Positions 14,977-42,303 of a stretch of 46,900 nucleotides of DNA are shown here, piece after piece; the first letter of the stretch is position 1, and each line of letters begins with the position of its first letter. The notes under the pieces are model-generated. The model saw nothing but the letters and a program-made list of their open reading frames with translations. It ran no database searches and was not told the DNA's origin. The stretch lies in assembly GCA_024711205.1 (NCBI GenBank), contig JANJTH010000259.1, positions 1-46,900 on the forward strand. Reading direction: 5' to 3'. Position numbers and translations under genes: made by a program. The stretch comes from Planctomycetota bacterium (GTDB lineage: Bacteria; Planctomycetota; J058).

Positions 14977-16791
14977 TCACCTCTTCGACCCCGGCCGCGC
15001 GCCCCCCCGGCGCGCCGCGGTCCTCAGGTGGGAAGTCACCAGCCCGAACGTCACGGCCAGGAACAGGAAGGCCCCGTCCTGGACGTTGACCGCGAACCGC
15101 TCGGCGTCGCTCATGCATAGCAGGCCGATCCCGGCTGCATATCCCCCGAGGTAGACGGTGAGAAACGCCAGGAGTCGGAGGCGCCGAGTGTGTCCAGGCC
15201 TCCAGGCATGGGCCCCCGAGGTGGCGACGAGGAGCACGAGGAGGAGCGGCGCGAGGACGAACGCCAGGTCGCAGCACGCCGCGACGGCCCCCACCGCGAC
15301 CACCGCCGCCCCGAGCGCGCCCGCGGAGGGTCCGCTCGCGGGCTCGGCTGTACCCGGGCGCGGCACGGGGGATCCGGCCTGCGCGTACGCGAGCATGAGG
15401 TAGCTGTCGATCCGCGCGTCGCGCGCCACGAGCGCAGCCCGGTCTCCAGCCGCTCCCGTGAGGCCGTCCCAGCGGTAGCTCCCCCCGAGCCCGTGCGCGT
15501 AGAGGCGACAGGCCGATCCTGCCGCATGGAAGGCGTAGTCGACGGGGTGGGCTCGGATCCCCTCGAGCGCGAGCTCGCGATAGATCCGCTCCAGGCCATG
15601 CTGCCGCGTCTCGCCGGCCGAAGATGACCGTAGCCGCTCGCGCTCCACGGCCGCGGCGGGGCTGTCGTCGCCGAATCGAGCACGAAGCGCCGGGGAGACG
15701 CTCCCGTAGATCAGCCAGTTCGGCTGGTGATCGCCGTGGTCCGCGAAGTCCTGCCGATACCGTGGGATCAGCCGCGCCAGCTCCATGGCCAGCTCCGGGC
15801 TGTCCACGGCCTCGACGTCCGTCAGATGGCCGACGTGCGCGTAGAGGTTCATGTAGGTCGCGGCGTTCGTCCCCCAGTAGCCGAAGCGCCGAGAGTATTC
15901 CGTCGAGTAGGTCGCCCACGAGGAAAGGCATGCGACCACGACGATCGCCAGGTGTGCCGTGACTCGACCGCGCGTCCACTTGCCGGGTGCCCACGCGAAG
16001 AGGAGCGCGAGGCTCGGGAGCATGAACAGCGCCGTGGGCTTGGCCAGCATGCTCGCGAGCAGCGCAAAGGCCACGCCGAGGGCACGCCACGCGGACGGAC
16101 GGCTCCACCACCAGAGCGACGCCGCGAGCAAGAGCGCGTTGCAGGTCCGCGCCGCGTGCTCCGAGAGGAGCAGATACTCGAAGGCGAGGTTCTTCTCGCA
16201 CAGGCACAGGTAGGCCAGCAGGGTGAGCGCCACGGCGCGCGAGCGCGTCGCCCAGCGTGCTGCGCAGACCAACGCGATCGAGGACGTGAGCCAGAGGACG
16301 TGGTGCAGCCATAGCACCCCGACCGGATGCCCCCACCCACGGTGTGCCAGCGCGACGAGGAGCGGGGTGCCAGCGGTCCTCACCTCGCTGAACGGGAACA
16401 CCGGGTGCGCCAGCGCGGGCGAGATGTAGCTCGTGGTGTCAGGCCCTGCGTCCGGCATGCCGAGCGTCACGGTCAGGCCGATCCGAATCGCCAGGCCCGT
16501 CGCCAGGAGCGTCGCCCCGATCGCGAGTCCCTCGGCCCTCCCTGGGAACCTGGCCACGCGCCAGGCCACACCGGGCGCGAGCGCCGACCCGAGCAACGCG
16601 GCGTGGACGGCGAGCACGAAGAGCCACGGTGCCCGCGAAGGGAACCCCAGGAACTCGAGGCCGAGCGCCCCCCCGAACCGGGTGTGCGCGAGCACCAGGC
16701 CCAGGTCCACGACGGCCAGCAAGGCGACGGCCCTTGCGATCGCTCTCCTGGCTCGGTCCCGGCGTGGTCGGTTGCCGCCCGCTGCGCCCAA
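14977..16791 (-). CDS. Polytopic GT-C-like (ArnT/PMT_2-like) membrane glycosyltransferase candidate, paralog 1
   Basis: 604 aa with more than 10 hydrophobic segments. First-loop motif MPDAGPDTTSYISPALAHPVFPFSEVRTAGTPLL. Further shared motifs are CEKNLAFEYLLLSEHAART, LAKPTALFMLPSL and the C-terminal CMSDAERFAVNVQDGAFLFL. TTG start lies 3 nt after the upstream stop. Confidence 0.7.
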   Translation of the reverse strand: MGAAGGNRPRRDRARRAIARAVALLAVVDLGLVLAHTRFGGALGLEFLGFPSRAPWLFVLAVHAALLGSALAPGVAWRVARFPGRAEGLAIGATLLATGLAIRIGLTVTLGMPDAGPDTTSYISPALAHPVFPFSEVRTAGTPLLVALAHRGWGHPVGVLWLHHVLWLTSSIALVCAARWATRSRAVALTLLAYLCLCEKNLAFEYLLLSEHAARTCNALLLAASLWWWSRPSAWRALGVAFALLASMLAKPTALFMLPSLALLFAWAPGKWTRGRVTAHLAIVVVACLSSWATYSTEYSRRFGYWGTNAATYMNLYAHVGHLTDVEAVDSPELAMELARLIPRYRQDFADHGDHQPNWLIYGSVSPALRARFGDDSPAAAVERERLRSSSAGETRQHGLERIYRELALEGIRAHPVDYAFHAAGSACRLYAHGLGGSYRWDGLTGAAGDRAALVARDARIDSYLMLAYAQAGSPVPRPGTAEPASGPSAGALGAAVVAVGAVAACCDLAFVLAPLLLVLLVATSGAHAWRPGHTRRLRLLAFLTVYLGGYAAGIGLLCMSDAERFAVNVQDGAFLFLAVTFGLVTSHLRTAARRGGARPGSKR

Positions 16792-16794
16792 GGG

Positions 16795-17868: not shown

Positions 17869-18160
17869 GTGGGCCCCCTTCGGATCGAGATCTTCCTTGT
17901 ATCCAAGCTCGCACCTCGTGCGCTCGGCACTCCGGCCGCCTGGGGAAGCAGCCCGTCCGCTGCGGTCGTCAGCACCAGCCGTCGCCATGAGGGGAGCCGC
18001 CCACTGCCGCGAGGGAGAGCCCCGACGGCCGGGTCGAGGACGTGCGCCGGAGAGCCCTGGGAGACGCCGAGGTCGTCGCTGGCCGAGCTCCGACTCATGG
18101 GCAGCGAGCTCTCGACGGCCATGCGCTCGTGGCGCCGCGGGAGCTGCATCGATCGCCAGG

Positions 18161-19177
18161 TCATGGGCTCCGGGGTCCCTCCGCGACCGAAGCGGGAGGT
18201 GCGTCGCGGCCCGCCGGTCCGTCAGACGCTCTCCCCTGCCCGGCGAGCCGGTCTCCTGGCTTGCCAGCCAACACCCCCCAGGCGTCGCGATCGCGAGGAT
18301 AGAGGCCGACTCGTGAGGTGACATAGGCGAGCGCAGCGATCGCGATCAGGAGCAGCGTCGTGGCGACGAGGACGACCGCGCTGATCATCCCGCCGATCCG
18401 CTCCAACCACACCCCGTAGAGTCCGGAGACCAAGGCGCCGAGGGCCGCGACGAGCACGAGCGGGAGATACAGCTTGAGGGGGTTGTAGACCGCGATGACC
18501 TGGAAGAGGTACTGGAGCGTTCGGAGCACGTCACGGGGGCGGACGTGACTCCGCCCCACACGCTGGTCATAGGCAATGTCGCGGAACACGACGACGTGTC
18601 CCGAGAGCAAGGAGGTCAGCGTCAACGAGGTCGTGAAGCTGAAGCCCAGGCAGAGGTCGCCGCGCAGCGGCTCGACCACGGCGCGCCGGAACAGGCGGAG
18701 CCCGCTGTTGGCGTCGGGCACGTCGCGGCCGCAGACGTAGCCGCAGAGCGCCCGGTAGAAGAGGCGCAACGAGAAGTGCGACCGGAAGTGTTGCCCGGTC
18801 CGGCGCCCGATCACGTGATCCGCCCCTTGCTCGATCAGGCCCCACATCGCGGGGATCTCGCCGACGGGGTAGGTCCCGTCGGCATCCGTGATTCCGATCA
18901 CCTCGCCCCGGGAGGCGGCGATCCCGCGCAGGAGCGAGTGCCCGTAGCCCAGGTTCACCGGATTGCGCAGCACCCGGACGCCCTCGACCAGCGCGGCGCG
19001 CTGGGCGGTCTCGTCGCGGCTGCCGTCGTCGACGACGAGGACCTCCGCGGGGCAACCGACCTCGGCCAGGGCGTCCCGCAGCCGCCGCAGGACGCCCTCG
19101 ATCGCGCCTGCCTCGTTCAAGGCGGGCACGACGATCGTCAGCCGCGGGCGGTCACGCAAGCCCTCCTGCTCAGTCAT
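18161..19177 (-). CDS. GT2 polyprenyl-phosphate glycosyltransferase (GtrB/ArnC/DPM1-like) with two C-terminal TM helices
   Basis: LTIVVPALNEAGAIEG, VLVVDDGSRDETA and ITDADGTYP. C-terminal helices are LKLYLPLVLVAALGALVSGLYGVWL and ISAVVLVATTLLLIAIAALAYV. ATG at 19177 is preceded by GGGAGGA and overlaps the upstream stop (ATGACTGA). Confidence 0.85.
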   Translation of the reverse strand: MTEQEGLRDRPRLTIVVPALNEAGAIEGVLRRLRDALAEVGCPAEVLVVDDGSRDETAQRAALVEGVRVLRNPVNLGYGHSLLRGIAASRGEVIGITDADGTYPVGEIPAMWGLIEQGADHVIGRRTGQHFRSHFSLRLFYRALCGYVCGRDVPDANSGLRLFRRAVVEPLRGDLCLGFSFTTSLTLTSLLSGHVVVFRDIAYDQRVGRSHVRPRDVLRTLQYLFQVIAVYNPLKLYLPLVLVAALGALVSGLYGVWLERIGGMISAVVLVATTLLLIAIAALAYVTSRVGLYPRDRDAWGVLAGKPGDRLAGQGRASDGPAGRDAPPASVAEGPRSP

Positions 19178-19607
19178 GGATCCTCCCGAACTCGGCAATG
19201 GGTGCGCCAATCGGGTCGATCCCAGGCGCCTCCGAGGTCCCTGACCCCTCCTCGAGCTGCGGTGCGCGCTCGAGCCGCCGAAGCACCTCGGCGGCGGCGC
19301 ATGCCAGGAGCAGCGCGCCCACCGAGGCGAGGAAGCGGCGCCGGTCCTGCGTGCCGATCCAGCTCGGGAACGGGCTCACGAGGAGAGTCGAGACCGACAG
19401 CGCCCCGGCCAACAGGACGCAGGCGAGCGCGTCGAGCGCGTCCAGCGCCCGCGTCCTGGCCGGCCGCGCGGCACCCGCCTGGATCACGGCCAGGACGACG
19501 CCGAAGTCGATCAGCAGGTGCACGCCGACGAGGGGCCAACCGGTCCCGACCTGGACCAGGACGAAGGCCATGCCGAGCCCGGCCAAGACTCGAACGGACG
19601 CGCTCAC
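19170..19607 (-). CDS. Small four-helix membrane protein, possible GtrA/ArnE-like flippase component
   Basis: C-terminal part of track ORF 19170..20696, with four hydrophobic segments in ~105 aa plus a polar tail. GTG at 19607 overlaps the TGA of the upstream GT-C gene (GTGA), and its own TGA overlaps the ATG of the GT2 gene. ATG at 19571 is an alternative start. The family call rests on size, topology and gene context only. Confidence 0.5.
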   Translation of the reverse strand: MSASVRVLAGLGMAFVLVQVGTGWPLVGVHLLIDFGVVLAVIQAGAARPARTRALDALDALACVLLAGALSVSTLLVSPFPSWIGTQDRRRFLASVGALLLACAAAEVLRRLERAPQLEEGSGTSEAPGIDPIGAPIAEFGRIHD

Positions 19608-21454
19608 GCCCCCGGGCTCCCGAGCCGCCTGCGCGCCGCGGCGACGCCCGCGTCGAGCGTGAGGGCGGCCGCGCAGAGCAGGAAGGGCGTGGCTGGGAGG
19701 CGATAGCGCCCCAGGGGCACGGCGGCCAGCGCCGTGATCAGCGCCACGTACACCGCGGAGCCGGCGCAGAGCGCGGCCAGCGGCCGGGACCTGGGCTCGA
19801 CCACGAACGGGCAGGCGAGCGCGAGCACGAGGACGACCGGCGCAGCCGCGGCGCAGAGCGCAGACCAGGCCTCGAGCCACGGCACGTCTCGCTCGCCGAG
19901 CGGGAGGGTCCGCCACGCGGCGGGGGTGAACTCGTTCTCGAGCAAGACGAAGCGGTGGAAGTCGAGCAGGTTCCAGGGCGGCTGGACGTTCACGAGCGTG
20001 CCCCACGCGCACTCCGCGGAGACCCGTGCGAAGCGCAGCGAGTGCTCGCGCAGGCGCTCGAGGTACAGGCGCACGACGAACCGATCGATCTCGGGGTCCG
20101 ACCAGCCGAGCTCGTCCCGGATCGCGTCGTAAGGCCCGAGCCAGGCCGTCTCGCGCTTCGCCCACACCAGGCTCCGGGCGCGCTCGACCGGGTCCTCGGG
20201 CGACGCGCCCGTGGGCTCGAGCGGGGGCATGTCGTAGATCACGCGGTAGAGGAGGTTCCGGCCGGCGGAGCCGGTCACCTCGAAGTGCCCGCGAAAGGCG
20301 TAGTGGTGCGCCATGACGGCGACGACGGGCCCGATCGCCCCCGCGAGCAGCCAGGCCACAGCGGATCTGCGCGGTCTCCAGGGGCCCCGAGCGAAGACGA
20401 GCGCGATAGGCAAAAGGAACCAGAGCTGCAGCGCCTGCCGGGTCAGCGCGGCCAACGCGGCGAGCAGCCCGGCCCCCAAGAGACCCATGCTCGCGGGCCA
20501 GCCCTCGAGATGCAGCGTCCAGAGCAGCGCCACGGCGGCCAGGACGAGGATCGACGTCGCGAAGGCCTCGTGCATGATGGAACTCGCGAACACCGCGAGC
20601 TGGGCGTCGCCGGCCACGAGCACCCCGACGAACGCCCCGGTCCACGGCCTGGACGTGATCTGGCCGACGGTGTGGGCCAGCGCTGCAGCCGAGCACACGA
20701 CGGCGGCGTGCTGCGCGAGGACGAGCGCGACGAGGCGGGCGTGGAGGTCACCCCGCGCGCACGCCTTGACCAGCCAGACATACACGGGCGCCTGGTGCGA
20801 CCTCACCTCGGTGGGCTCGAAGAACGGCGCCTCCCACACGTTGACGTACGAGTCGATCGAGACGACGACCGGGAGGGCGGCGAACACGAACGCGTGGAGC
20901 GCAGCCCCGACGAGGAGCGTCACGGCCACCGGCGACCACCCGTGTGCACCCGCGAGGGACTCGGCGGGCGTGACCCGCGTCAGGGGGCCGAAGAGCGCGC
21001 GCCTGGCCTCGAGCGCGAGCAGGAGCGCAGCCCCCCCGCCGCCGAGTGCCCGAGCCGTTCGCAAGAGATGCGCCCTCCCTTCCTCCTCGGGCAGGGCCTG
21101 CCCCATGAAGAGTGAGACCTGTCCAGCCGCCACCATGGTGAAGGCAGCGCAAGCCAAGCCGACGGCGGAGAGGGCGACACCCGCCGGCTCGTCACTGAGC
21201 GCCGAGCGACCGGAGAGCACCAGAAGGCCGAGCAGCGCGCACGAGACCGCCACGACACCGGCCAGCGGTAGACCACCCGGCGGGAGCCAGACGCTCCCCG
21301 CGACGGTGAGGGCGATCCCGACCCTCAGCGCGCGTCGCGACACGTGTGGACCTGCAGCCGACACGTCCCGGAAACCTCCTGCCGCGGCGTGGGGCGAGAG
21401 GCTATCACGGCGGGCGGCGACCCTCCGCGCGACCCGGCAGGGGACCGGCGTCAC
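19604..21454 (-). CDS. Polytopic GT-C-like membrane glycosyltransferase candidate, paralog 2 (divergent)
   Basis: 616 aa and polytopic. Loop motif VVSIDSYVNVWEAPFFEPTEVRSHQAPVYVWL (D-S-Y), with FASSIMHEAFATSILVL, LTRQALQLWFLLPIAL and the C-terminal AAVPLGRYRLPATPFLLC. GTG start at 21454 (alternative 21343). Confidence 0.65.
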   Translation of the reverse strand: MTPVPCRVARRVAARRDSLSPHAAAGGFRDVSAAGPHVSRRALRVGIALTVAGSVWLPPGGLPLAGVVAVSCALLGLLVLSGRSALSDEPAGVALSAVGLACAAFTMVAAGQVSLFMGQALPEEEGRAHLLRTARALGGGGAALLLALEARRALFGPLTRVTPAESLAGAHGWSPVAVTLLVGAALHAFVFAALPVVVSIDSYVNVWEAPFFEPTEVRSHQAPVYVWLVKACARGDLHARLVALVLAQHAAVVCSAAALAHTVGQITSRPWTGAFVGVLVAGDAQLAVFASSIMHEAFATSILVLAAVALLWTLHLEGWPASMGLLGAGLLAALAALTRQALQLWFLLPIALVFARGPWRPRRSAVAWLLAGAIGPVVAVMAHHYAFRGHFEVTGSAGRNLLYRVIYDMPPLEPTGASPEDPVERARSLVWAKRETAWLGPYDAIRDELGWSDPEIDRFVVRLYLERLREHSLRFARVSAECAWGTLVNVQPPWNLLDFHRFVLLENEFTPAAWRTLPLGERDVPWLEAWSALCAAAAPVVLVLALACPFVVEPRSRPLAALCAGSAVYVALITALAAVPLGRYRLPATPFLLCAAALTLDAGVAAARRRLGSPGA

Positions 21455-21475
21455 GCCGACTCCGCCTGCCTGGGC

Positions 21476-25812: not shown

Positions 25813-27111
25813 ATGTGGGCACTCCGTCTCGATCACGTCCGGAAGGTCTATCGGCTCTACGATCGGCCTGCTGACCACCTCCTCGAGCTGCTCACCTTCG
25901 GCGTCCGCCGACGGCACAAGGAGCTCGTCGCCGTCGAGGACGTGACGTTCGAGGTCGAGGCGGGGACGACGCTCGGCCTGATCGGCCGCAACGGCGCGGG
26001 CAAGAGCACCCTCCTGAAGATGATCAGCGGAAACCTGAGCCCCACCGCGGGGACGATCGAGGTGCGAGGCCGCGTCTCGAGCATCCTGGAGCTGGGCATG
26101 GGGTTTCAACCGGCGCTCACCGGCGGGCAGAACATCCGCATCAACGCCCTCATGCTGGGCCTACGGCCGCCCGAGATCGAGGAGCGCATCCCGAAGATCG
26201 TGGCCTTCTCGGAGCTCGGGGACGCGATCGACCGCCCGATCGCCACCTACTCGAGCGGGATGGTCGCGCGGCTCGCCTTCTCGATCCTGACCGCCGTGGA
26301 GGCGGACGTCCTCGTCCTCGACGAGGCCCTCGCGACGGGCGACGCCGGCTTCATCGCGAAGGGCCGACGCCTGATCGAGGAGCTGCGGTCGCGCGGGAGC
26401 ACCGTGATCCTCGTGTCCCACGAGATGCGGCACATCACGCAGCTCTGCGACAAGGCGGTGTGGATCGACGGCGGCCGGGTGCTCGGTGAAGGACCCGCCG
26501 AGCGAGTCTGCGAAGACTACCTCGCCTCGCTCCCCCGTGTGGAGCCCCCGGCCCATGAGCGCGTCCTGACGCCCACTCGCCTGCTGTTTCGCCTCAGCAT
26601 CCCGCCGAGCGCGGAGGGGGAGGTTGCCTTCCCTGTCGCGACCCTCGGCTACTGGGACGTCGAGCAGCAGCGCGACCTCGGGTCAGCGCAGCTCGCCCTG
26701 CAAGCTCACGCAGACACGAGCTTCGCGGGCACGCGCGAGAACGGCGTCGACGCCGTCGCGGCGCGCGCAGGATGGGGCGAGGTGATCGACGCGGACGGTC
26801 GAGAGGCTCGGGTGTTCCGACTCCGGGCGGAGGCGCCCGCCTACGTCTCCGTGTCGACGCCCTTTCACGGCTCGGGCGGGTCCGTGGTCATCCGGCTCTC
26901 ATTCAGGGACGACACCCCACAGCCCATGCTCGTGGACCTGCTGCACGCAGGGGTGACCACGCGCCTCGGCACCGCGTTCGGCGGCGGTGACGGGAGCTGG
27001 CGCCACGTCGACTTCCGACTGCCCGCCTCGATGCGCTTCGACACGCTGCTGACCCGTGAGTCCGCCTTCGAAGCGGCCAGCGCGCGCTCGGGCGAAGGAG
27101 TCGGCGCGTGA
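25813..27111 (+). CDS. ABC transporter ATP-binding protein of polysaccharide-export type (Wzt/TagH-like) with ~190-aa C-terminal extension
   Basis: Walker A GRNGAGKSTLLK, signature YSSGMVARLAF, Walker B VLVLDEALATGD and H-loop VSHEM. Residues from ~250 to 432 form an extra non-NBD domain. Confidence 0.9.
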   Translation: MWALRLDHVRKVYRLYDRPADHLLELLTFGVRRRHKELVAVEDVTFEVEAGTTLGLIGRNGAGKSTLLKMISGNLSPTAGTIEVRGRVSSILELGMGFQPALTGGQNIRINALMLGLRPPEIEERIPKIVAFSELGDAIDRPIATYSSGMVARLAFSILTAVEADVLVLDEALATGDAGFIAKGRRLIEELRSRGSTVILVSHEMRHITQLCDKAVWIDGGRVLGEGPAERVCEDYLASLPRVEPPAHERVLTPTRLLFRLSIPPSAEGEVAFPVATLGYWDVEQQRDLGSAQLALQAHADTSFAGTRENGVDAVAARAGWGEVIDADGREARVFRLRAEAPAYVSVSTPFHGSGGSVVIRLSFRDDTPQPMLVDLLHAGVTTRLGTAFGGGDGSWRHVDFRLPASMRFDTLLTRESAFEAASARSGEGVGA

Positions 27112-27956
27112 GCCCCCCCAGCCCTCGTCGCGGCGCCGGCCCCACCACGGTCGACGCGTCCCCGCGCGTCCAATGGCTCAAGAACCAGCTCTACGCGCTC
27201 CTCTTCCTCACCTACTACGGCTTCGTCCAGCAGTACAGCCGCGCGGCCCTGGGGCTCCTCTGGTTCTTCATCACCCCTCTCTCGTTGATGGCGATCTATG
27301 GGGCCCTGCTGCAAGGGGTGTACGACGTGCGCCTCCCAGGGGCCGGCAGCAAGGCTTCCTACGCCCAGCTCATCCTGGCGGGGCTCCTCCCCTGGTCGGC
27401 CTTCGCCGACGCCGTCGGCAATGGAGCCTACAGCCTGATCAACAACCCGAGCGTGCTCCGCCACTCACCCATGCCGCCGATCTTCCTGCCGACGGTCAAG
27501 GTGATCCAGCCCTTCCTCGGCCTGGCGGTCGGCATGGCCGTCCTCGTGGCGGCGGGTGCGCTCCTGGGCGACCTCGCGGGCGCGAGGGTACTCCTGGTCC
27601 TCGTCTCCTGCGCGTGCCTCTTCCTGTTCGCGCTCGGGGTCACTTGGATCGTGGCCGCCCTCGCCGCCTACCTGCGAGACGTGACCCAGCTCGTCTCCAC
27701 GCTCCTGCTGATCGGAATGTTCGCTTCTCCCGTGTTCTACACCCCGTCGATGATCCAGGGCATGCCGGAGGTGGTCCAGGTCGCCATGCGGGCCAATCCG
27801 CTCTCCGCATACATCGGTCTGTCGCGGGCAGCGTTCATCTCCAACCCGTTCGATCCGTTGGACGTCGTGCTCGGCGTCCTGTTCGCCCTCGTCGCGCTCG
27901 CCCTCGGCGCCGTCGTGTTCCGCAGGCTCGAGCCAGGTCTTGCGGATTGCGTATGA
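27108..27956 (+). CDS. ABC-2 type polysaccharide export permease (Wzm/TagG/KpsM-like)
   Basis: GTG start overlaps the upstream TGA (GTGA at 27108-27111). About 6 hydrophobic helices. N-terminal ...LLFLTYYGFVQQYSRAALGLLWFFITPL is typical of ABC-2 permeases. Confidence 0.85.
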   Translation: MSPPSPRRGAGPTTVDASPRVQWLKNQLYALLFLTYYGFVQQYSRAALGLLWFFITPLSLMAIYGALLQGVYDVRLPGAGSKASYAQLILAGLLPWSAFADAVGNGAYSLINNPSVLRHSPMPPIFLPTVKVIQPFLGLAVGMAVLVAAGALLGDLAGARVLLVLVSCACLFLFALGVTWIVAALAAYLRDVTQLVSTLLLIGMFASPVFYTPSMIQGMPEVVQVAMRANPLSAYIGLSRAAFISNPFDPLDVVLGVLFALVALALGAVVFRRLEPGLADCV

Positions 27957-29538: not shown

Positions 29539-29553
29539 GCGTCCGGGGTTGGT

Positions 29554-31539: not shown

Positions 31540-31687
31540 GGTCGTTCGACCTCCCGGGTTTTCGCGGGGGCGTGAGTTCGCGCCCCGCGTCCGTGCCGCG
31601 CGGGCCCCGGGGCCGAGGTGGTATACCCCTGGCGGCTCGCGCCCGACGCGCAGGTGGCGCGGACAGCGGCTGGCTCGAAGGGGGCGC

Positions 31688-34760: not shown

Positions 34761-35025
34761 CGGTCGCGCCAGATACCTGGCGAGGCGCCTCGCGTCCCGA
34801 GCCGTCGCTCCACCGGGTCACCATCGTCGAATCCTGGACCCTGATTCAGTCGGCCTCGCACGTCCGGACAGCCCTCCGCGCGTCTCCGCGCGCGAGCAGC
34901 ATGGCAAACCGGCATGGCACCCGCCGGAAGCCGGGTCGTGGCCCGTGGGCCCACGCGACCGCCCTGGCAAGCTCCGGGGGCCCCATGAGACGATCCACAG
35001 CGGGAGAGTTCTCGCCGAGGGACGA

Positions 35026-37263
35026 GTGAGCGACACGACCCAGGCCGGCCAAGGCGACTCGAGGGAGTCGGGAGAGCACGAGCCGACGCTGCGCTCCAGG
35101 TCCGGCCTCGTGCTGCTCGCCGGCATGGTCACCCTCTCGTGCGCCTTCGCGCTCGGGTCGAACGAGCTCGGTGGGCGCCTCGGCTTGCCGGAGCTGGCCC
35201 TGCGGAGCAACGCCGGGCTCCTGCTCCTCGCGGCCTGGGTGTGGACGTGCAACCGCGTCCTGGTCGGCCCTCGAGCGCGTCGGGCGCTGGCGGCCCTCTT
35301 CGTCCTCCTGGACCTCGGGGTCCTGATCGCCTGCACACGCCTCGGGGCCGCACTCGCGCTCCCCGGGTTCGACCTCTGGGGCATGGACGGGGTCGTCCTC
35401 GCCGTCCTCAACCTCTGGGCCTTCGAGCGCGCGGTGGACGGGAAGCGACGAGCCCTCACCTCGTTCGCCGCACGCACGGGCTTGCCCGCCGCGCGCGTCG
35501 AGGAGCTCGCCGGCCACTGCGTCCTGGCGCTCCTGCTCGTTGGCCTCTTCGCCCACCGCGCCTGGCTCAGCGTCGCACTCGGCACGCCCTTCACGACCCC
35601 CGACAGCCCCTCCTATCTCGCACCCGCGCTGTCCGATCCCGTCCTGCCCCTGTCGGAGATCCGGACGCTCGGGGTGCCATGGCTCTGCTCGCTGGGCCTG
35701 GCGCTCTGGGGCAACCTCTCCGGAGTCCTGGCCCTCCACAACCTGCTCTGGGCCGCCTCGACGGCCCTGCTGGTGTTCACACTCCGAGCTCGCATGAGGC
35801 TCGGCGCCTTGCCCTGGCTGGTCTTCCTGTACCTCTCCCTGACGCAGAAGAACTTGTCCTTCGAGCTCACGCTCATGTCCGAGCACCCGTCGCGCTGCCT
35901 CTACACCCTGTACTTCGCCGTCCTGGTCCGCTGCTGGGGCGAGTGCCGGACTCGAACGACCCTGGCCTTGACCGGGCTCACCATCGCGAACGTCCTCGTC
36001 AAGCCGACCGCGATCGTCCTCGTCCCGATCACCGGGCTCGCCTACCTCATGTTCCGCCTCCGAGACCCACGCTTGCCCTGGCGCACCGTCCTGCGGCAAG
36101 TCGCCCTCGCCGTCGCGCTCGTCATCGCGTTCCAGGCCGCATACGCGTCCGCATACGCGGTCCGGTTCGGGCGCTTCGCGACCAGCGCCTTCACCGGAAG
36201 CGCGCTCTTCTCCCAGGTGGGCCACCTCGTCGACCTCGACGCACCCACCCACCTCGAGCTCAAGGCGGAGCTCCGCCGCATCCTCCCGCGATACGTCACC
36301 AGTTACGTGAGCCGTGGGGTCCATGAGCCGAACTGGCTCGTGTTCGGCTCCCTGGACGACCGCCTTCGTCGCGACTTCGGTGACCTCAGCCCGGGAAGAT
36401 CCGTCCGCGAGTACGTGGTCCGACACCGCGATCCGGCTCGAACCTTCCAGCAGCAGCTCGACGACCTGTTCAAGGAGCTCGCGGTCGAGGGGATCCGCGC
36501 CCATCCGGGGTCCTACCTCTCGCTCGCGTGCAGCGACTTCGTGCGGCTGTTCCGCGACGGGCTCGGCCCGTTCTACGGCGGAACGATCGACGACATCCGG
36601 AGCGCTGGCCCTCACGCCTGCGGCCACGGTTCACCTCCCGCGCTGCGGCTGCATCGAGAGGTCGTCGTCCGGGAGGTCCGACATGCCTACGTCATCGCGG
36701 GCGCCCAGCCGCCTGACACGGCGGCTCTCCTCGGTCGCGCGCATGGGCCCCTGCCGCTTCCGCGTGGCCCCGCCGAGCTCTCGCGTCACCTCACGGAGAT
36801 GAGCCTCTCGTTCTCCACGTTCATCGCCGAGCTCTGGAGCCGTTGGCGGGTCGGCTGGGTCCTGTTCGCCATGCTCCCCCTGGCCTGGCTCGTGCGCCGC
36901 GAGCACGGCGACGCACTGCGCCTCGCGACCTTGCTCCTCGTCACCGCGGCGGCCTACGGGGCGCTGCTCGCGCTGGTCTGCATCAGCGAGGTCGCACGGT
37001 TCGTCGCCAACGTCCAGGACCTCGTGTTCCTGGCCCTCGCGATCGTCGGCTGGGTGGAGCTCCGCGCAGTCGACGACCTGGTGGCGCGCGGCACCCGCTC
37101 TGCCCCGGAAGCCGTGAACGTGCCGCCGCTGCCCCCTCGGGACGAAGACCCGCGCGCCGAGGGCCCCGAGGTTGGCCGATCGGATCCTGTGGTGGCCGCC
37201 GGGGCCGAAGTGGGCAGCCCCGAAGCCGACTCGCAAGATTGCGATCCCCTCGCAGGGAGGTAG
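35026..37263 (+). CDS. Polytopic GT-C-like membrane glycosyltransferase candidate, paralog 3
   Basis: Distal part of track ORF 34432..37263. Motifs are TTPDSPSYLAPALSDPVLPLSEIRTLGVPWLCSLGLALWG, LTQKNLSFELTLMSEHPSRCLY, LVKPTAIVLVPITGL and CISEVARFVANVQDLVFLALAIVGWVELRAV. Start is uncertain: GTG at 35026 or ATG at 35126. Confidence 0.7.
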   Translation: MSDTTQAGQGDSRESGEHEPTLRSRSGLVLLAGMVTLSCAFALGSNELGGRLGLPELALRSNAGLLLLAAWVWTCNRVLVGPRARRALAALFVLLDLGVLIACTRLGAALALPGFDLWGMDGVVLAVLNLWAFERAVDGKRRALTSFAARTGLPAARVEELAGHCVLALLLVGLFAHRAWLSVALGTPFTTPDSPSYLAPALSDPVLPLSEIRTLGVPWLCSLGLALWGNLSGVLALHNLLWAASTALLVFTLRARMRLGALPWLVFLYLSLTQKNLSFELTLMSEHPSRCLYTLYFAVLVRCWGECRTRTTLALTGLTIANVLVKPTAIVLVPITGLAYLMFRLRDPRLPWRTVLRQVALAVALVIAFQAAYASAYAVRFGRFATSAFTGSALFSQVGHLVDLDAPTHLELKAELRRILPRYVTSYVSRGVHEPNWLVFGSLDDRLRRDFGDLSPGRSVREYVVRHRDPARTFQQQLDDLFKELAVEGIRAHPGSYLSLACSDFVRLFRDGLGPFYGGTIDDIRSAGPHACGHGSPPALRLHREVVVREVRHAYVIAGAQPPDTAALLGRAHGPLPLPRGPAELSRHLTEMSLSFSTFIAELWSRWRVGWVLFAMLPLAWLVRREHGDALRLATLLLVTAAAYGALLALVCISEVARFVANVQDLVFLALAIVGWVELRAVDDLVARGTRSAPEAVNVPPLPPRDEDPRAEGPEVGRSDPVVAAGAEVGSPEADSQDCDPLAGR

Positions 37264-37296
37264 GCTCATGCCGACCTGGAATGGAGCTGGTGCGAC

Positions 37297-38043: not shown

Positions 38044-38265
38044 CCCCGGAGAGGACGACGCCGGGCAGGGCCTGACCGTGGGCGCGTCGAAGCCTCCTGG
38101 CCCCCTGGGCACCGACATGGACTAAGCCGTCCGGCGCCCGCAGGGACCGGGCTGGTCGCGGCCGCGCACGGGCGCTAGCTTGTCGGCCGCCCGGGTCCCA
38201 GCCCGGCGGCTCCGACGGCGATCACGCCGGCGAAGGGATCCGCCCGCTTGCACGCCGCGTCCGAG

Positions 38266-40260
38266 ATGCTCAGGTACCTCCTTCCTCGCCCTCGGCGCCG
38301 TCGCCTCGCGCTCCTCGCGGCCCTGCTGGCGGCCTTCGATCTCCTGGCGCTGCTCGCGGTGAGCCGCTGGGGGGGGCCCCTTGGACTGCCGAGCCTGGAC
38401 CTGCTGTCCACCGACGGGGCGCTGCTGCTGCTCGTCAACGTCTGGGGGCTGGAGCGGCTCACGCGCGTGGGCCGCCTCGGCTGCGAGGCCCTGGCCGTCC
38501 GCCTCGGCATCGAGCGCGCGCGGCTCGCAGCGTTGACGACCTGGGTGGTCCTGGCCCTCATCATCGCGGCGGGCCTCGCGCACCGCCTCTGGCTGACCTT
38601 CGTCCTGGGTGCGCCCTTCACCCAGCCGGACAGCGCGTCCTACCTCGCGCCCGCACTGCTCGATCCGCTCCTCCCGCTCTCCGAAATGCGCACGCTCGGG
38701 ACCCCGTGGCTCTGCGCGCTGGGGCTCTCCCTGACCGGGGGACCCTCGGGTCTCCTGCTCGTCCACCACGCGCTGTGGCTGGCCTCCACGCTCGCCCTGG
38801 TCGTGGCCCTGGCGCGCCGCCGCGAGCTCCGGCTCGTGGCCGTGCTCGTCGCCGCGTACCTGACGCTCACCCAGAAGAACGTTGAGTTCGAGCTCACGCT
38901 CATGTCCGAGCACGCCTCGAGGACGCTCTACGTGCTCTTCCTGGGCATCCTTGCGAACTCGTGGGGCCACTGCCGGACACGCGTCACGCTCGCATTGGCC
39001 TCGGTCGCGTGCGCGAACGTCCTGGTCAAGCCCACCGCGCTCGTGCTGTTCTCGTCCCTCGCGCTGGTCGTTGCGCTGTTCCGACGCATGTCGCCGGGGA
39101 TCTCCTGGCGCAAGATCGCGGCCCAGCTCGGCCTCGCCCTCGCGGTCCTCGTCGCCTGCCAGGCGACCTACGCGCTCGCCTATCGCGCGAGGTTCGGCCG
39201 CCTGGCCACGAATGCCTTCACCGGGACCGCCCTGTTCTCTCAGGTCGGACACCTCGTGGACCTGGACCGGGTCACCCCGCGCGAGTTGGCCAGCGCGTTG
39301 CGCGCGACGCTCCCCGCCTACGCCGAGCGCTACGCGGCGCGAGGGCGGCACGAGGCCAACTGGCTCGCCTTCGGGACCCCGACGCCCGAGCTACTGCGCG
39401 ACTTCGGGGAGGACAGCCCCTCGCGAGCGATCCGGGACCACGTCTCGGCGCACCGGGACCCGGCACGGACGTACATGCAGCAGCTCGACGACACATTCAG
39501 GGAGCTCGCCCTCGCGGGGATCCGCGCCCGGCCACATCAGTATCTGGCGCTCGCAGCGAGCGACCTCGTGTCCCTGTACCGGGATGGCGTCTCCACCTTC
39601 TACCCGTACGACGGGCCGGAGGCGCGGCACCTGGGCGCGCTCGCCGCGGGGTATGCCGCGCCCGCGGCGCTCGAGCGCCACCGCGAGGCGGCGCTCGAGC
39701 ACTTCGGGCAAGCCTATCGTGAGGTCGAGCTCCCGGCGCCGCCCCCCGAAGCCCTCCTCGGGCGAGGGCACTCCGGGCCGCCCCTGCCGGCGCTCCCACT
39801 CGCCTACGGTCGCGCCATGGCCTGGGCCTCCATCGCCTGGTCCGAGCTGTTGCAGCAGCTCCTCCACCGCTGGCAGGTCGGCTGGCTGCTCCTCCTCGCA
39901 TTGCCGCTGGCGTGGCGCCGCCGCGCGCAGGACGCGGACGCCCTGCGGCTCGTCCTGGTGACTGCCACGGTCGCCCTCGGATATGGGGTGCTCCTCGCGC
40001 TGATCTGCGTCAGCGAGGTCGGGCGGTTCGCCACGAACGTGCAAGACCTGATTTTCCTGGGCCTCTTCCTGCTCGGCTGGGTCGAGCTCCGCGCGGTCAA
40101 TGCCTGGTTCGATGAGCCCCTGCTCGGCGCCCCCCCGGCCTCCGTCCAGGACCCCGCGGCCCACGTCGCGACCGCGCACCTCCGAGCCGACGCCCGGCCG
40201 GGCCCCACGAGCGTCGAAGGCCCCGGGCCGGTGACCGACGGGGCGCCCTGCGATGGATAG
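38266..40260 (+). CDS. Polytopic GT-C-like membrane glycosyltransferase candidate, paralog 4 (closest to paralog 3)
   Basis: TQPDSASYLAPALLDPLLPLSEMRTLGTPWLCALGLSLTG, LTQKNVEFELTLMSEHASRTLY, LVKPTALVLFSSLAL and CVSEVGRFATNVQDLIFLGLFLLGWVELRAV. ATG at 38266 (the track start is TTG at 38248). Confidence 0.7.
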   Translation: MLRYLLPRPRRRRLALLAALLAAFDLLALLAVSRWGGPLGLPSLDLLSTDGALLLLVNVWGLERLTRVGRLGCEALAVRLGIERARLAALTTWVVLALIIAAGLAHRLWLTFVLGAPFTQPDSASYLAPALLDPLLPLSEMRTLGTPWLCALGLSLTGGPSGLLLVHHALWLASTLALVVALARRRELRLVAVLVAAYLTLTQKNVEFELTLMSEHASRTLYVLFLGILANSWGHCRTRVTLALASVACANVLVKPTALVLFSSLALVVALFRRMSPGISWRKIAAQLGLALAVLVACQATYALAYRARFGRLATNAFTGTALFSQVGHLVDLDRVTPRELASALRATLPAYAERYAARGRHEANWLAFGTPTPELLRDFGEDSPSRAIRDHVSAHRDPARTYMQQLDDTFRELALAGIRARPHQYLALAASDLVSLYRDGVSTFYPYDGPEARHLGALAAGYAAPAALERHREAALEHFGQAYREVELPAPPPEALLGRGHSGPPLPALPLAYGRAMAWASIAWSELLQQLLHRWQVGWLLLLALPLAWRRRAQDADALRLVLVTATVALGYGVLLALICVSEVGRFATNVQDLIFLGLFLLGWVELRAVNAWFDEPLLGAPPASVQDPAAHVATAHLRADARPGPTSVEGPGPVTDGAPCDG

Positions 40261-40395
40261 GCTCGCGGGCGCCGCGCTGCCCTCCGAGGAGCGCCGTGAC
40301 CTCGAACGCCTTCCGCGAGAGTTCGCGCCCGGCGCGAACCACGAGAGCCCGCGGGCCACGGTCTCCGAGCCGCTCGACGCGCCCGTACGTGCCGA

Positions 40396-42303
40396 GTGCG
40401 ACCGGGGGCCTCTCCGCTGGAGGGCCTGCCGACCGGTAGGCCGCAGGCCGCGCATGGACGGCCCGTGACCGAGGCCGCGGGAGCCCGGGCCTGGTGTCCG
40501 ACGCCCGAGGGGGCGCCGATCGGGGCCCCCCCAGGGCCGCTCGCCCGCCCCCTCGTCCGCGCCGCCGCCGGTCTCGACCTCCTCGGCCTGGCGGCGATCC
40601 TCCACCACGCGCCCGCGGAGCGCCGGGCGCGGCTCATGCTCCTGGGCGCGCCGCTCCTCGTCGCGCTCCTCGCCCTCGCGGCCCGGCCCGGCGCCGGGCT
40701 CGCCCTCGCGCGCCGCCTCGGTTCCCGAGCGCTCGTCGGGGCTGGAGCGGGTCTCGTCGCGGCGCTCGCCCTGCTCGGCGCCCCGGCCCTCGCCCTGACC
40801 GTCGCCCCGTTCGCGGCGCTGGGGCTCGCCGACGAGGCGGTCCGCCGGCCCCGGCGGACCGCCGTGGCCCTCGCCGGGCTCGCGCTGCTCGTCGGCCTCT
40901 CCGTCCGGGTCGGGCTCACGCTTGCGGTCCCCTACCCGCTCGTCGAGCCCGACACGGCCGGTTACCTCGCCGGTCCCGACGCCTGGCTCGCGGGGGCCGC
41001 CCCGCGCTGGGCGATCGACTCGATCCGCACCCCGACCTTCCCCGGCTTCGTCACGGGGGCGCTCGCGCTCACCGGAAGCTACCCCGGGGTCGCGCTCGCC
41101 ACGCACGCGCTCGCGCTCCTGGTCGCGGCCGGCGCCGCCGGCGTCGTCCTGCGGCGGGCAGGCCCGCTGCCCGCCGCCCTCGTCCTCGGCGCGCTGTGGG
41201 CCGCGCCCCGCGCCGCCCTCCTCGAGCACACCCTCATGAGCGAGGCGCTGCACGGCCTGTGCCTCACCGCGTTCGTCGTCCTGCTCGCCGGCGCGGTCCG
41301 GCGCGGCGCTCCCGCCGCCCCGGCGACGTGCGTCGCGCTCGGCCTCGCCACCGCCGCGGTCGCGCTCGCACGCCCGAACTCGCTCGCGACGGTCGCGCTC
41401 GCCCCGGCCGCGCTGGCCTTCTCCGGGCGCCGCGGTGCAGCGGCCTTCGTCGCTGCCGCCGCCGTCGTCCCCCTCCTCGCCTGGTGCACGCACAACGCGC
41501 TCCGGCTCGGCTTCTTCGGGCTCACGACCTTCTCGGGCGGCTCGCTGTTCGGCGTGGTCGGCCACAACCTCGACCTCGACCGGGGCCCGCCCCACGCGCA
41601 GGTGCGCGCGGAGATGCGCGCCGCGCTCGAGGCGCACAACGCGCGCCGCCCGCCGCATGACCCCGACGTGATCTGGCTCATGTACGCCCCCGAGGGCCCG
41701 ATCCGGACCTCCGCGACGCTCGCCGCGCTCGACGCCCCCGCCCGGGACCGAGTCCTGGTCGACCTCGCCCGGGAAGCTCTCCTGCGGGCCCCGGGGGCGC
41801 TCGTCCGCCGCACGGCCGCGCAGTCCCTGCGCTTCAGCCTGGCCGAGCCCGCGGCGCTCCCTGCCTGGGACGCGCTCCAGGCGCGAGTCCGCCCCGGCGA
41901 GGCCACGCACGGCTACGCCTGGGCCTCCCCGGCCTTCGTCGACCCGCCCTGGGCGCGCGCGCTCGACGGACTCCCGTCCGAGCAGGTCTACACCACGCTC
42001 GCCTGGCTCCCTGCCCGGGTCGTGGCGCGGGTGGTCCCGTTCCACGTGACCGAGCAGCCGCTCCTGTTCGTCGCGTTCCTCGTGCTCGGCTGGCGGCACC
42101 GGCGCTGGCGGGCCCTGCTCTGGCCGGTGGCTCTACTCGGCCTGAGCCAGGCGGCGCTGTGCGCCGTGTTCAGCTATCCGGAGTCGCGCTTCCGCCTGCA
42201 GACCGTGCCGCTCACCGTGATCCCGCTCGCCCTGCTCCTCGGCGCCCGCCTGCGCGTGCTCATGCCGGCGCAGGCGCCCGAGGCTCAGCCCTCACCCGTG
42301 TAG
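40396..42303 (+). CDS. Polytopic GT-C-like membrane glycosyltransferase candidate, paralog 5 (divergent)
   Basis: YPLVEPDTAGYLAGPDAWLAGAAPRWAIDSIRTPTFPGFV, ALLEHTLMSEALHGLCL, LARPNSLATVALAP and the C-terminal FSYPESRFRLQTVPLTVIPL. Start is uncertain (GTG at 40396 or 40465). Confidence 0.65.
   Translation: MRPGASPLEGLPTGRPQAAHGRPVTEAAGARAWCPTPEGAPIGAPPGPLARPLVRAAAGLDLLGLAAILHHAPAERRARLMLLGAPLLVALLALAARPGAGLALARRLGSRALVGAGAGLVAALALLGAPALALTVAPFAALGLADEAVRRPRRTAVALAGLALLVGLSVRVGLTLAVPYPLVEPDTAGYLAGPDAWLAGAAPRWAIDSIRTPTFPGFVTGALALTGSYPGVALATHALALLVAAGAAGVVLRRAGPLPAALVLGALWAAPRAALLEHTLMSEALHGLCLTAFVVLLAGAVRRGAPAAPATCVALGLATAAVALARPNSLATVALAPAALAFSGRRGAAAFVAAAAVVPLLAWCTHNALRLGFFGLTTFSGGSLFGVVGHNLDLDRGPPHAQVRAEMRAALEAHNARRPPHDPDVIWLMYAPEGPIRTSATLAALDAPARDRVLVDLAREALLRAPGALVRRTAAQSLRFSLAEPAALPAWDALQARVRPGEATHGYAWASPAFVDPPWARALDGLPSEQVYTTLAWLPARVVARVVPFHVTEQPLLFVAFLVLGWRHRRWRALLWPVALLGLSQAALCAVFSYPESRFRLQTVPLTVIPLALLLGARLRVLMPAQAPEAQPSPV

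What the first reader, a model, noticed from the sequence alone, without database searches (positions are those of the whole stretch)
14977..42303. Five paralogs of one polytopic membrane-protein family with GT-C-like loop motifs
The ORFs are 14977-16791(-), 19604-21454(-), 35026-37263(+), 38266-40260(+) and 40396-42303(+). All share the same architecture: about 10 helices, a ~250-aa soluble insert and 2-3 terminal helices. They also share collinear motifs. The first-loop motif is PD(S/T)xSY(L/I)xPAL..P..P.SE(I/M/V)RT.G.P (D-S-Y / PDTAGY in the divergent copies). The others are (T/C)(Q/E)KN..FE..L(M/L)SEH, (V/A)KPTA(I/L) and SE(V/A).RF(V/A).NVQD. An acidic residue plus Tyr in the first extracytoplasmic loop, followed by a Pro-containing turn, recalls ArnT/PMT_2 GT-C enzymes, but the match is only motif-level. 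Paralogs 3 and 4 share an identical 27-nt stretch (ttcgagctcacgctcatgtccgagcac at 35860-35886 and 38887-38913), which points to a local duplication. Five copies in 28 kb is striking and could mark an uncharacterised GT-C subfamily or a different activity such as a polymerase or ligase.
Basis: partly seen in the sequence, partly recalled or inferred. Interest (0 to 1): 0.75.

Follow-up and report, generated by a model that had tools for sequence, protein, structure and literature searches.

The report
Five unclassified GT-C membrane glycosyltransferase paralogs
Five membrane proteins in one sugar-polymer gene cluster are distant, unannotated relatives of the lipid-linked-sugar glycosyltransferases (ArnT/PMT type) and most likely add sugars to an exported surface glycan outside the cell membrane.

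Summary
Exactly five ORFs in the window (A 14977-16791-, B 19604-21454-, C 35026-37263+, D 38266-40260+, E 40396-42303+) match one family profile; no other ORF does. A, C and D form a tight subfamily, E is divergent, and B is detectable only with profiles (109 bits; shuffled controls reach at most 0.9 bits). None hits Pfam, NCBIfam or PDB sequences directly.

An exhaustive profile search links the family to proteins that pass Pfam's PMT_2 threshold (hhalign 99.3-100%). A confident AlphaFold2 model of D (pLDDT 87) retrieves almost only GT-C enzymes from the PDB, though with modest scores. The model has the GT-CA layout: seven core TM helices, a first outer loop with two short helices and a near-invariant Asp, then a helical outer domain and three more TM helices. 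All conserved motifs map to the outer face.

The cluster also encodes a Wzm/Wzt-type ABC exporter, two GT2 enzymes resembling polyprenyl-phosphate sugar synthases, GT4s, methyltransferases and membrane-anchored SGNH proteins.

Verdict: a rare, unclassified GT-CA family, probably performing post-export glycosylation. The 27-nt identity reflects a conserved motif plus codon bias, not a recent duplication. Activity, donor and acceptor remain untested.

The parts
14977..16791 (-). Paralog A, core-subfamily GT-C-like membrane protein (public gene aa, start about 16710). Conserved D118, Y122, R138, E205, E211/H212, K251-P252 and RF..NVQD.
   Evidence: GC3 0.88. 458 bits against the core profile built without window sequences. 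Motifs.
19604..21454 (-). Paralog B, the most divergent copy. It belongs to the wider PMT_2-like group, not the core subfamily. Motifs IDSY, EVRS, IMHEA, GRY.
   Evidence: No pairwise hit. hhalign against the tail profile gives 98.8%, E 4.7e-17. hmmsearch gives 109.5 bits versus at most 0.9 for shuffles. Only one close relative in 5.8 billion proteins.
35026..37263 (+). Paralog C, core subfamily, with a duplicated N-terminal TM hairpin. It lies directly downstream of, and in frame with, an IS630-type transposase remnant.
   Evidence: 52% identical to D. 522 bits against the core profile without window sequences. Called as 745 aa on independent contigs.
38266..40260 (+). Paralog D, core subfamily and the modelled copy. 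Core TM1 84-114; outer loop 1 at 115-160 with D122/Y126 and E140/R142; outer loop 2 with K204, N205, E209, E215, H216; K255-P256 turn; helical outer domain 311-508; three C-terminal TM helices; R587..NVQD594.
   Evidence: AF2 pLDDT 87.3, pTM 0.86. Foldseek returns GT-C matches. Conservation and topology.
40396..42303 (+). Paralog E, divergent copy (public gene aa, start about 40465). Motifs PDTAGY, SIRT, LMSEA, RPNS, SRF.
   Evidence: hhalign 97.7%, E 1.4e-12 against the A/C/D profile. 275.9 bits against the tail profile.
18161..19210 (-). GT2 with a C-terminal hydrophobic region (aa 238-304). Candidate polyprenyl-phosphate sugar synthase of the GtrB/ArnC/AglJ type, i.e. donor maker.
   Evidence: Pfam Glycos_transf_2. 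Top NCBIfam relatives are Dol-P-hexose transferase, AglJ, PpgS and ArnC, all below the curated cut-offs. Hydropathy.
44590..45468 (-). Second GT2 (no TM segment), in a module with a C-methyltransferase (43352-44593) and an epimerase/dehydratase (42285-43355) next to E.
   Evidence: The same GT2 - Methyltransf_13/14 - epimerase module sits beside family member P0013 in another metagenome.
25813..27956 (+). ABC exporter: ATPase (25813-27111, TagH / galactan Wzt-like, with a C-terminal extension) and ABC-2 permease (27108-27956, Wzm-like).
13277..14827 (-). Membrane-anchored SGNH/AlgX-like protein adjacent to A. Similar genes lie at 8964-10238(-) and 21476-23287(-, adjacent to B), and probably at 10428-12386(+).
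   Evidence: Pfam Lipase_GDSL_2/ALGX. Paralogy and TM helices. Core family member P0024 carries a fused C-terminal GDSL domain.

Best explanation
The five genes encode divergent members of the GT-C (subclass GT-CA, ArnT/PMT_2-like) superfamily of polytopic membrane glycosyltransferases. They belong to a rare family that no curated model covers.

Proposed mechanism (inferred):
1. Cytoplasmic GT4 and GT2 enzymes build a glycan on a lipid carrier, and the Wzm/Wzt-type ABC transporter exports it.
2. In parallel, the GtrB/ArnC-like GT2 enzymes load sugars onto polyprenyl phosphate. Some of these sugars may be modified by the neighbouring epimerase/dehydratase and C-methyltransferase.
3. The lipid-linked sugars are flipped across the membrane.
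4. Each of the five GT-C paralogs transfers a sugar from polyprenyl-phosphate to a distinct position on the exported glycan, at the outer face of the cytoplasmic membrane. The near-invariant Asp of the first outer loop (D122 in D) acts as catalytic base or donor-positioning residue. The conserved Arg/Lys residues (R142, K204, K255, R587) are candidates to bind the donor phosphate. The helical outer domain inserted after TM7 may select the acceptor.
5. Membrane-anchored SGNH proteins and methyltransferases add further decorations.

Shown here: homology, fold, predicted topology, conservation and gene context. Inferred: enzymatic activity, donor, acceptor and the division of labour among the five copies.
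For: Family and homology:
- Exactly five ORFs match the family profile, with clean shuffle controls.
- The exhaustive search finds 586 representatives at E<=1e-3 and 45 at E<=1e-30.
- 22 of 67 tail members hit PMT_2 (best E 2.4e-22), 8 hit PMT and 1 hits Glyco_transf_22. Three of 46 core members weakly hit PMT_2.
- hhalign core versus tail gives 100%, E 1.2e-50, over the whole length. Core versus P0050, which passes the PMT_2 gathering score, gives 99.3%, E 3.9e-20.

Structure and topology:
- AF2 model of D has pLDDT 87.3 and pTM 0.86.
- Foldseek top 30 are EmbA/B/C, STT3/PglB/AglB, ArnT, ALG3/9, Pmt1/2/4 and AftA, with probability 0.9-1.0.
- The layout is seven core TM helices, a two-helix first outer loop with the conserved Asp at the start of its first helix, and a variable C-terminal module. 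This matches the published GT-CA definition (PMC13503287).
- The positive-inside rule puts D122/Y126, E209/E215/H216, K255/P256 and R587 outside.
- The tail profile aligns the family Asp and Arg with TMEM260 D52 and H67, both essential donor-site residues.

Context:
- The GT2 genes' nearest named relatives are polyprenyl/dolichyl-P sugar synthases, and GT2a has a C-terminal hydrophobic region.
- The exporter is TagH/Wzt/Wzm-like.
- The same partner genes recur near homologs in other metagenomes.
- This matches the described multi-component transmembrane glycosylation paradigm (PMC11127046, PMC8035078).
Against: - No direct Pfam, NCBIfam or PDB sequence hit for any of the five; the link to PMT_2 runs through intermediate sequences.
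- Foldseek E-values are modest (1e-3 to 1e-1) and TM-scores low (0.25-0.29), so the fold match is qualitative.
- Topology rests on the positive-inside rule applied to model helices, not on a dedicated predictor or experiment.
- No GtrA, Wzx or MATE flippase was recognised in the window.
- The GT2 matches to polyprenyl-P sugar synthases are all far below the curated cut-offs.
- One homolog (P0007) sits next to a lipid A-type acyltransferase rather than in a glycan cluster.
- Only D was modelled; B and E were not.
Confidence: 0.65

Rival explanations
1. They are GT-C enzymes, but protein O-glycosyltransferases (like bacterial Pmt, PMT or TMEM260) that glycosylate secreted or envelope proteins rather than a polysaccharide.
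For: The nearest recognised families are PMT_2 and PMT. The only PDB sequence match of the wider profile with a meaningful alignment is the protein O-mannosyltransferase TMEM260. As in PMTs, the soluble domain sits between TM7 and TM8 (PMT layout from established knowledge).
Against: All five sit inside a glycan assembly and export cluster with an ABC-2 exporter, GT4s and sugar-modifying enzymes. PMT_2 also contains ArnT-like lipid and glycan transferases such as GtlB. The soluble domain is all-helical, with no MIR or TPR match.
Confidence: 0.12
2. They are GT-C enzymes of the ArnT type that modify a membrane lipid (lipid A or another glycolipid) rather than the exported polymer.
For: JGI annotates the related protein P0050 as ArnT-like. 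Homolog P0007 is translationally coupled to a Lip_A_acyltrans gene. The GT2 - epimerase/dehydratase - modified-sugar logic resembles the Arn pathway.
Against: Five paralogs for lipid modification would be unusual. Most homolog contexts are GT4/AsnB/exporter glycan clusters.
Confidence: 0.08
3. They have a non-glycosyltransferase role despite GT-C ancestry. Examples would be a membrane partner that presents substrate to the SGNH acyl-transferases/esterases, a polymerase or ligase, or an inactive scaffold.
For: Membrane-anchored SGNH genes flank A and B, and one family member (P0024) is fused to a GDSL domain. No MBOAT or AT3 acyl donor protein is present in the window.
Against: The residues conserved family-wide are the GT-C donor-site positions (Asp and Arg of outer loop 1, basic residues on the outer face). 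No Wzy, WaaL, MBOAT or transporter structure appears among the confident Foldseek matches. The SGNH association is absent from several homolog loci.
Confidence: 0.08
4. The ORFs, or their similarity, are artefacts of a very GC-rich sequence: long spurious ORFs and Ala/Leu-rich composition.
For: 115 ORFs of at least 150 aa overlap throughout the window. The proteins are Ala/Leu/Arg-rich.
Against: GC3 is 0.88-0.94 with coding-like position asymmetry. Homologs exist in unrelated metagenomes and MAGs. Shuffled controls score at most 0.9 bits against 109-276 bits for the real sequences. The AF2 model is confident.
Confidence: 0.01

Closest known systems
Pfam PMT_2 (PF13231) / ArnT-like GT-C enzymes (CAZy GT83/GT39 area), including Listeria GtlB-type cell-wall polymer glycosyltransferases
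   Same: Polytopic membrane protein with a conserved Asp shortly after TM1 in the first outer loop, followed by an aromatic residue and a (R/H)-P-G-Y-P-like segment. Profile-level homology through intermediates. ArnT (5ezm, 5f15) is among the best structural matches, with the highest target-normalised TM-score of the top hits. The partner GT2 resembles ArnC/GtrB.
   Different: None of the five reaches any Pfam threshold. The acidic motif is PD(S/T)xSY rather than DE/DxD. The family has its own motifs (KN..FE..LMSEH, KPTA, RF..NVQD). A helical outer domain of about 200 aa is inserted after TM7, whereas ArnT has a C-terminal alpha/beta domain (ArnT layout from established knowledge).
TMEM260 (DUF2723) protein O-mannosyltransferase, PDB 9rql
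   Same: It is the only solved structure reached by sequence profile with a meaningful alignment (E 0.0023). The family Asp and Arg align with the essential D52 and H67 of its sugar-recognition motif between TM1 and TM2. It has a seven-TM GT-C module plus a variable module.
   Different: TMEM260 has C-terminal Rossmann-like and TPR lumenal domains and a separate catalytic base, D441. The window proteins have neither domain, and the match is weak.
Three-component / multi-component transmembrane glycosylation systems (GtrA/GtrB/Gtr*, GacI-L, C. youngae ORF12-15 with GT136, mycobacterial Emb/Aft)
   Same: The same logic: a polyprenyl-P-sugar synthase plus a GT-C enzyme acting after export of a polymer, including polymers exported by an ABC transporter. 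Multiple GT-C copies per pathway occur in mycobacteria and in some Xanthomonas and Bacillus loci.
   Different: No recognisable flippase in the window. The GT-C family is unrelated at sequence level to Gtr*, GT136 or Emb/Aft. Five paralogs of one family sit in a single cluster, associated with SGNH proteins and several methyltransferases.

Membership tests
GT-C fold glycosyltransferases, subclass GT-CA | Polytopic membrane protein with an N-terminal conserved module of seven TM helices followed by a variable module (PMC13503287) | tested here: met
   The AF2 model of D (pLDDT 87) has seven core TM helices (84-310), a helical domain and three further TM helices. Two extra N-terminal helices are subfamily-specific and of low confidence.
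GT-C fold glycosyltransferases, subclass GT-CA | First extracytoplasmic loop with two short helices, the first carrying a conserved acidic residue | tested here: met
   The loop at 115-160 has helices 124-132 and 145-157. D122 lies at the start of the first helix, is conserved in 91% of 46 family members and is invariant in the 67-member tail alignment. Its outer location is inferred from the positive-inside rule only.
GT-C fold glycosyltransferases, subclass GT-CA | Three-dimensional similarity to solved GT-C structures | tested here: inconclusive
   The Foldseek top 30 are almost exclusively GT-C enzymes with probability 0.9-1.0. However, E-values are 1e-3 to 1e-1 and TM-scores 0.25-0.29, and no residue-level superposition was available.
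GT-C fold glycosyltransferases, subclass GT-CA | Uses a polyprenyl-phosphate-linked sugar donor and transfers it at the outer face of the membrane | not testable with these tools
   Only context is available: GtrB/ArnC/AglJ-like GT2 genes in the cluster.
Pfam PMT_2 (PF13231) | Score at or above the Pfam gathering threshold (26.1 bits) | tested here: not met
   No hit for any of the five, even at E<=1. Three of 46 core members give weak hits (best E 8.6e-4). The relationship is only transitive, via P0050 and other tail proteins.
Three-component transmembrane glycosylation system | Polyprenyl-P-sugar synthase (membrane-linked GT-A/GT2) encoded with the GT-C | tested here: inconclusive
   Two GT2 genes are present. 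Their nearest named relatives are such synthases, but all scores are far below the curated cut-offs. GT2a has a C-terminal hydrophobic region.
Three-component transmembrane glycosylation system | Dedicated flippase (GtrA, Wzx, MATE or SMR type) | tested here: not met
   No such family was found among the window ORFs scanned. Unassigned membrane ORFs at 12400-13242 and 4880-5836 remain candidates. A homolog locus carries LPG_synthase_TM proteins.
   No Pfam or NCBIfam hit. The transporter structures listed by Foldseek have probability of at most 0.13.

The most novel reading that the evidence does not exclude
The five paralogs, together with the membrane-anchored SGNH proteins and methyltransferases, form an extracytoplasmic assembly line. 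It would build a whole branched, methylated and acylated glycan domain on an ABC-exported primer, using several different polyprenyl-phosphate sugars. That would be a non-actinobacterial counterpart of mycobacterial arabinan assembly by Emb/Aft enzymes, carried out by a GT-C family that would found a new CAZy family. The recurrent fusion and adjacency with SGNH domains would then reflect coupled glycosylation and acylation at the outer face of the membrane.
Probability: 0.2. Interest if true: 0.7.

Novelty: new variant of a known kind. Interest (0 to 1): 0.45.

Why it matters
GT-C enzymes are hard to recognise by sequence, and new families are still being founded (GT136 in 2024, PMC11127046). 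This one is invisible to Pfam, NCBIfam and PDB sequence searches, and its members are annotated as hypothetical proteins.

It is rare. There are about 45 core representatives among 1.84 billion protein clusters, and a search keyed on one conserved peptide motif found it in one of 185,579 GTDB species genomes. The two homologs with a taxon label come from a Planctomycetota MAG and a Thermoanaerobaculaceae MAG.

Defining the family gives a profile and a residue map (Asp, Arg, Lys and Glu on the outer face). These can be used to annotate similar clusters and to design mutants. Five copies in one cluster suggest an unusually elaborate post-export glycan decoration pathway in an uncultured, very GC-rich bacterium. 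The result extends a known enzyme class; it does not reveal a new kind of system.

Tried and rejected
- Direct Pfam and NCBIfam scans of the five proteins found nothing.
- PDB sequence searches with the 5-sequence and 46-sequence profiles found nothing.
- The word-indexed homolog search found only self, one 80% relative and paralog C for D, and a single 86% relative for B. This index performs poorly on Ala/Leu-rich proteins.
- tblastn against plasmids found no match.
- The first AF2 run with a 5-sequence alignment was unusable (pLDDT 55). It was repeated with 46 sequences.
- hhalign of B against the shallow A/C/D profile failed (0.2%), which at first suggested B was unrelated. Deeper profiles and shuffle controls reversed that.
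- The 652-aa ORF at 10428-12386 was tested as a possible sixth member and rejected.
- The 27-mer was tested as a sign of recent duplication or gene conversion and rejected.

Full report
**1. Observation**

The window is 69-79% GC and full of overlapping spurious ORFs (115 of at least 150 aa). C, D and E are called identically on independent metagenome contigs.

Pairwise BLASTP shows a graded relationship:
- C-D are 52% identical (E 1e-169).
- A-C and A-D are 34-36% identical (E 1e-67 to 1e-75).
- E matches C/D at 30% over about 280 residues (E 2e-10 and 4e-8).
- B has no significant match to any of them.

B carries only IDSY, EVRS, IMHEA and GRY.

The 27-nt identity between C and D is real and is the only long exact match. 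C and D are only 60% identical over aligned codons. The 27-mer encodes the most conserved nonapeptide, FELTLMSEH. Given the observed codon bias, identical codons for that peptide have a probability of about 0.04, and there are six comparable identical-peptide runs. It is a by-product of conservation plus codon bias, not a mark of recent duplication.

**2. Is it one family?**

The word-indexed database search was almost blind to these proteins. D returned three hits and B returned one. The exhaustive HMMER search with a profile of A, C, D, E and one metagenomic D ortholog did better:
- 586 representatives at E<=1e-3 among 1.84 billion cluster representatives.
- 45 at E<=1e-30, forming the "core" family.
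- A long "tail" of proteins of about 450-520 aa that match the membrane domain.

I aligned 46 core sequences (A5) and 67 tail sequences (A4). The two profiles match each other over their whole length at hhalign 100%, E 1.2e-50.

The tail profile contains no window sequence. Against it, all five window proteins score strongly: E 275.9, C 217.9, A 197.3, D 196.3 and B 109.4 bits. 600 composition-preserving shuffles each of B and E reach at most 0.9 bits. Every other protein of the window, including other polytopic ones, scores at most 1.5 bits, and no sixth ORF matches. hhalign gives B versus tail at 98.8%, E 4.7e-17.

"Five paralogs of one family" is therefore correct at the level of the wider family. 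A, C and D belong to the tight core subfamily, while E and especially B are old, divergent branches. In a neighbour-joining tree, C and D (with the D ortholog P0002) are sisters. They then join P0006 and P0007, which comes from a Planctomycetota MAG, and then A. E groups with P0045 outside this clade. The set is thus an accumulation of old paralogs with one lineage-specific C/D duplication.

**3. What is it?**

None of the five hits Pfam, NCBIfam or PDB sequences directly. The link to known families is indirect:
- 22 of 67 tail proteins match Pfam PMT_2 (best E 2.4e-22), 8 match PMT and 1 matches Glyco_transf_22. All of these are GT-C families.
- Three core members give weak PMT_2 hits.
- P0050 matches the family profile at E 2e-21, passes the PMT_2 gathering score and is annotated by JGI as ArnT-like. 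It aligns to the core profile at hhalign 99.3%, E 3.9e-20, over 311 columns.
- The tail profile weakly matches the solved O-mannosyltransferase TMEM260 (9rql, E 0.0023). The alignment places the family's invariant Asp and Arg on TMEM260 D52 and H67. A 2026 preprint shows that both are essential and contact the donor mannose.

AlphaFold2 with the 5-sequence alignment failed (pLDDT 55). With the 46-sequence alignment it gave a confident model of D (pLDDT 87.3, pTM 0.86). Foldseek against the PDB returned EmbA/B/C, STT3/PglB/AglB, ArnT, ALG3/ALG9, Pmt1/2/4 and AftA among the top 30, with probabilities of 0.9-1.0. The only listed non-GT-C structures score at probability 0.13 or below. E-values (1e-3 to 1e-1) and TM-scores (0.25-0.29) are modest. 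I therefore treat the fold match as qualitative support.

**4. Anatomy**

In D, two low-confidence N-terminal helices are subfamily-specific; the Thermoanaerobaculaceae homolog lacks them. They are followed by:
- Core TM1 (84-114).
- A first loop (115-160) with two short helices (124-132 and 145-157).
- Six more TM helices, up to residue 310.
- An all-helical domain of about 200 aa (311-508).
- Three further TM helices.

This is the published GT-CA layout. It consists of a conserved seven-TM module whose first luminal loop holds two helices, the first bearing the catalytic base, followed by a variable module (PMC13503287).

Using the model's helix boundaries and the positive-inside rule, the Arg-rich N-terminus and the loops RRRELR, SWGHCRTR, FRRM..WRK and RRRAQD are cytoplasmic. 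All residues conserved in at least 80% of family members lie on the outer face: D122, Y126, R142, E209, E215, H216, K255, P256 and R587. So does the helical domain. No dedicated topology predictor or experiment was available, however.

**5. Context**

The window is a glycan biosynthesis cluster. It encodes:
- A TagH/Wzt-like ABC ATPase with a C-terminal extension, and a Wzm-like ABC-2 permease.
- Three GT4 enzymes.
- Two GT2 enzymes. Their nearest named relatives are dolichyl/polyprenyl-phosphate sugar synthases (Dol-P-hexose transferase, AglJ, PpgS, ArnC, PgfS), all below the curated cut-offs. One of them has a GtrB-like C-terminal hydrophobic region.
- Two epimerase/dehydratases.
- Five methyltransferases, including a Methyltransf_13/14 C-methyltransferase and a TylF-type O-methyltransferase.
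- An AsnB-like amidotransferase.
- A radical SAM/SPASM protein.
- Three or four membrane-anchored SGNH/AlgX-like proteins.

Homolog loci repeat parts of this set:
- AsnB, GT4 and GT2 occur around the Thermoanaerobaculaceae copy.
- AsnB and GT4 flank P0024, which is itself fused to a GDSL domain.
- A GT2 - C-methyltransferase - epimerase module, identical in order to window 42285-45468, sits beside P0013, together with LPG_synthase_TM membrane proteins.
- P0007 is instead coupled to a lipid A-type acyltransferase.

**6. Mechanism**

The best-supported reading is the multi-component transmembrane glycosylation paradigm (PMC8035078, PMC11127046). A polymer is built in the cytoplasm and exported by the ABC transporter. 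It is then decorated at the outer face by GT-C enzymes that use polyprenyl-phosphate sugars made by the GT2 enzymes.

Five paralogs would give five linkage or sugar specificities. The helical insert would serve as the acceptor-recognition module, by analogy with the variable modules of other GT-CA enzymes.

Homology, fold, conservation, predicted topology and context are shown here. Activity, donor, acceptor and the flippase are inferred; no flippase was recognised.

The rivals are protein O-glycosylation, ArnT-like lipid modification, and a non-GT role linked to the SGNH proteins. None is excluded, but each fits the evidence less well.

**7. Novelty**

This is a member of a known enzyme class but of an unclassified, rare family. 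It has its own motif set (PD(S/T)xSY, KN..FE..LMSEH, KPTA, RF..NVQD) and a distinctive helical outer domain. Its members are annotated only as hypothetical proteins.

I rate it a new variant of a known kind. It is of moderate interest: useful for annotation and as an entry to an unusually elaborate post-export decoration pathway, but not a new principle.

Noticed in passing
window 33779-35025 (+): IS630-type transposase remnant: HTH domains at 33779-34270 and a DDE_3 C-terminal fragment within 34432-35025. The fragment is in the same frame as paralog C with no intervening stop (ORF 34432-37263). Independent metagenome contigs carrying C-D-E break about 245 nt upstream of C, consistent with a repeated element there.
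   Followed up: partly
window 8964-10238(-), 10428-12386(+), 13277-14827(-), 21476-23287(-): Three clear and one probable membrane-anchored SGNH/AlgX-like proteins, mutually paralogous, two of them directly adjacent to A and B. No MBOAT or AT3 acyl-donor protein is present in the window. Core family member P0024 (locus L005) has a GDSL domain fused to its C-terminus. This suggests a functional coupling between the GT-C family and SGNH enzymes that remains unexplained.
   Followed up: partly
window 29554-33499: The 928-aa minus-strand ORF has a SPASM domain (aa 291-359) before its Radical_SAM domain (aa 500-652), the reverse of the usual order. It also overlaps the N-terminal 800 nt of the plus-strand TviE-like GT4 ORF (31538-33499). 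It may be two radical-SAM genes or a mis-set boundary. A radical SAM enzyme in a glycan cluster is unusual in itself.
   Followed up: no
window 42285-45468 (-) and the JGI contig carrying P0013: A conserved three-gene module of GT2, Methyltransf_13/14 C-methyltransferase and NAD-dependent epimerase/dehydratase lies next to a family member in both loci. This suggests a C-methylated or deoxy sugar is loaded onto a lipid carrier for the GT-C enzyme.
   Followed up: partly
window 6771-8954 (+); L002 6691-8655; L005 3834-5708 and 8049-10004: AsnB-like glutamine amidotransferases (best NCBIfam match XrtA/PEP-CTERM system amidotransferase, below cut-off) recur beside family members together with TviE-like GT4 enzymes. 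This hints at an amidated uronic-acid polymer as the backbone.
   Followed up: no
window 35026-35400 (N-terminus of C): C carries an internal duplication of the N-terminal TM hairpin motif (G..L.LP.L.L...LLL....W) that is present once in A and D.
   Followed up: no
L002 15675-17657 (-): A 660-aa ORF with no Pfam hit near the Thermoanaerobaculaceae homolog gives a weak match (19.5 bits) to the tail profile. It may be a further, very divergent GT-C-like protein.
   Followed up: no
window 25813-27111 (+): The ABC ATPase has a C-terminal extension of about 190 aa beyond the nucleotide-binding domain. Several methyltransferases are nearby, including a 509-aa one at 16795-18324. This is reminiscent of Wzt carbohydrate-binding domains that recognise methylated chain termini, a comparison made from memory and not tested.
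   Followed up: no
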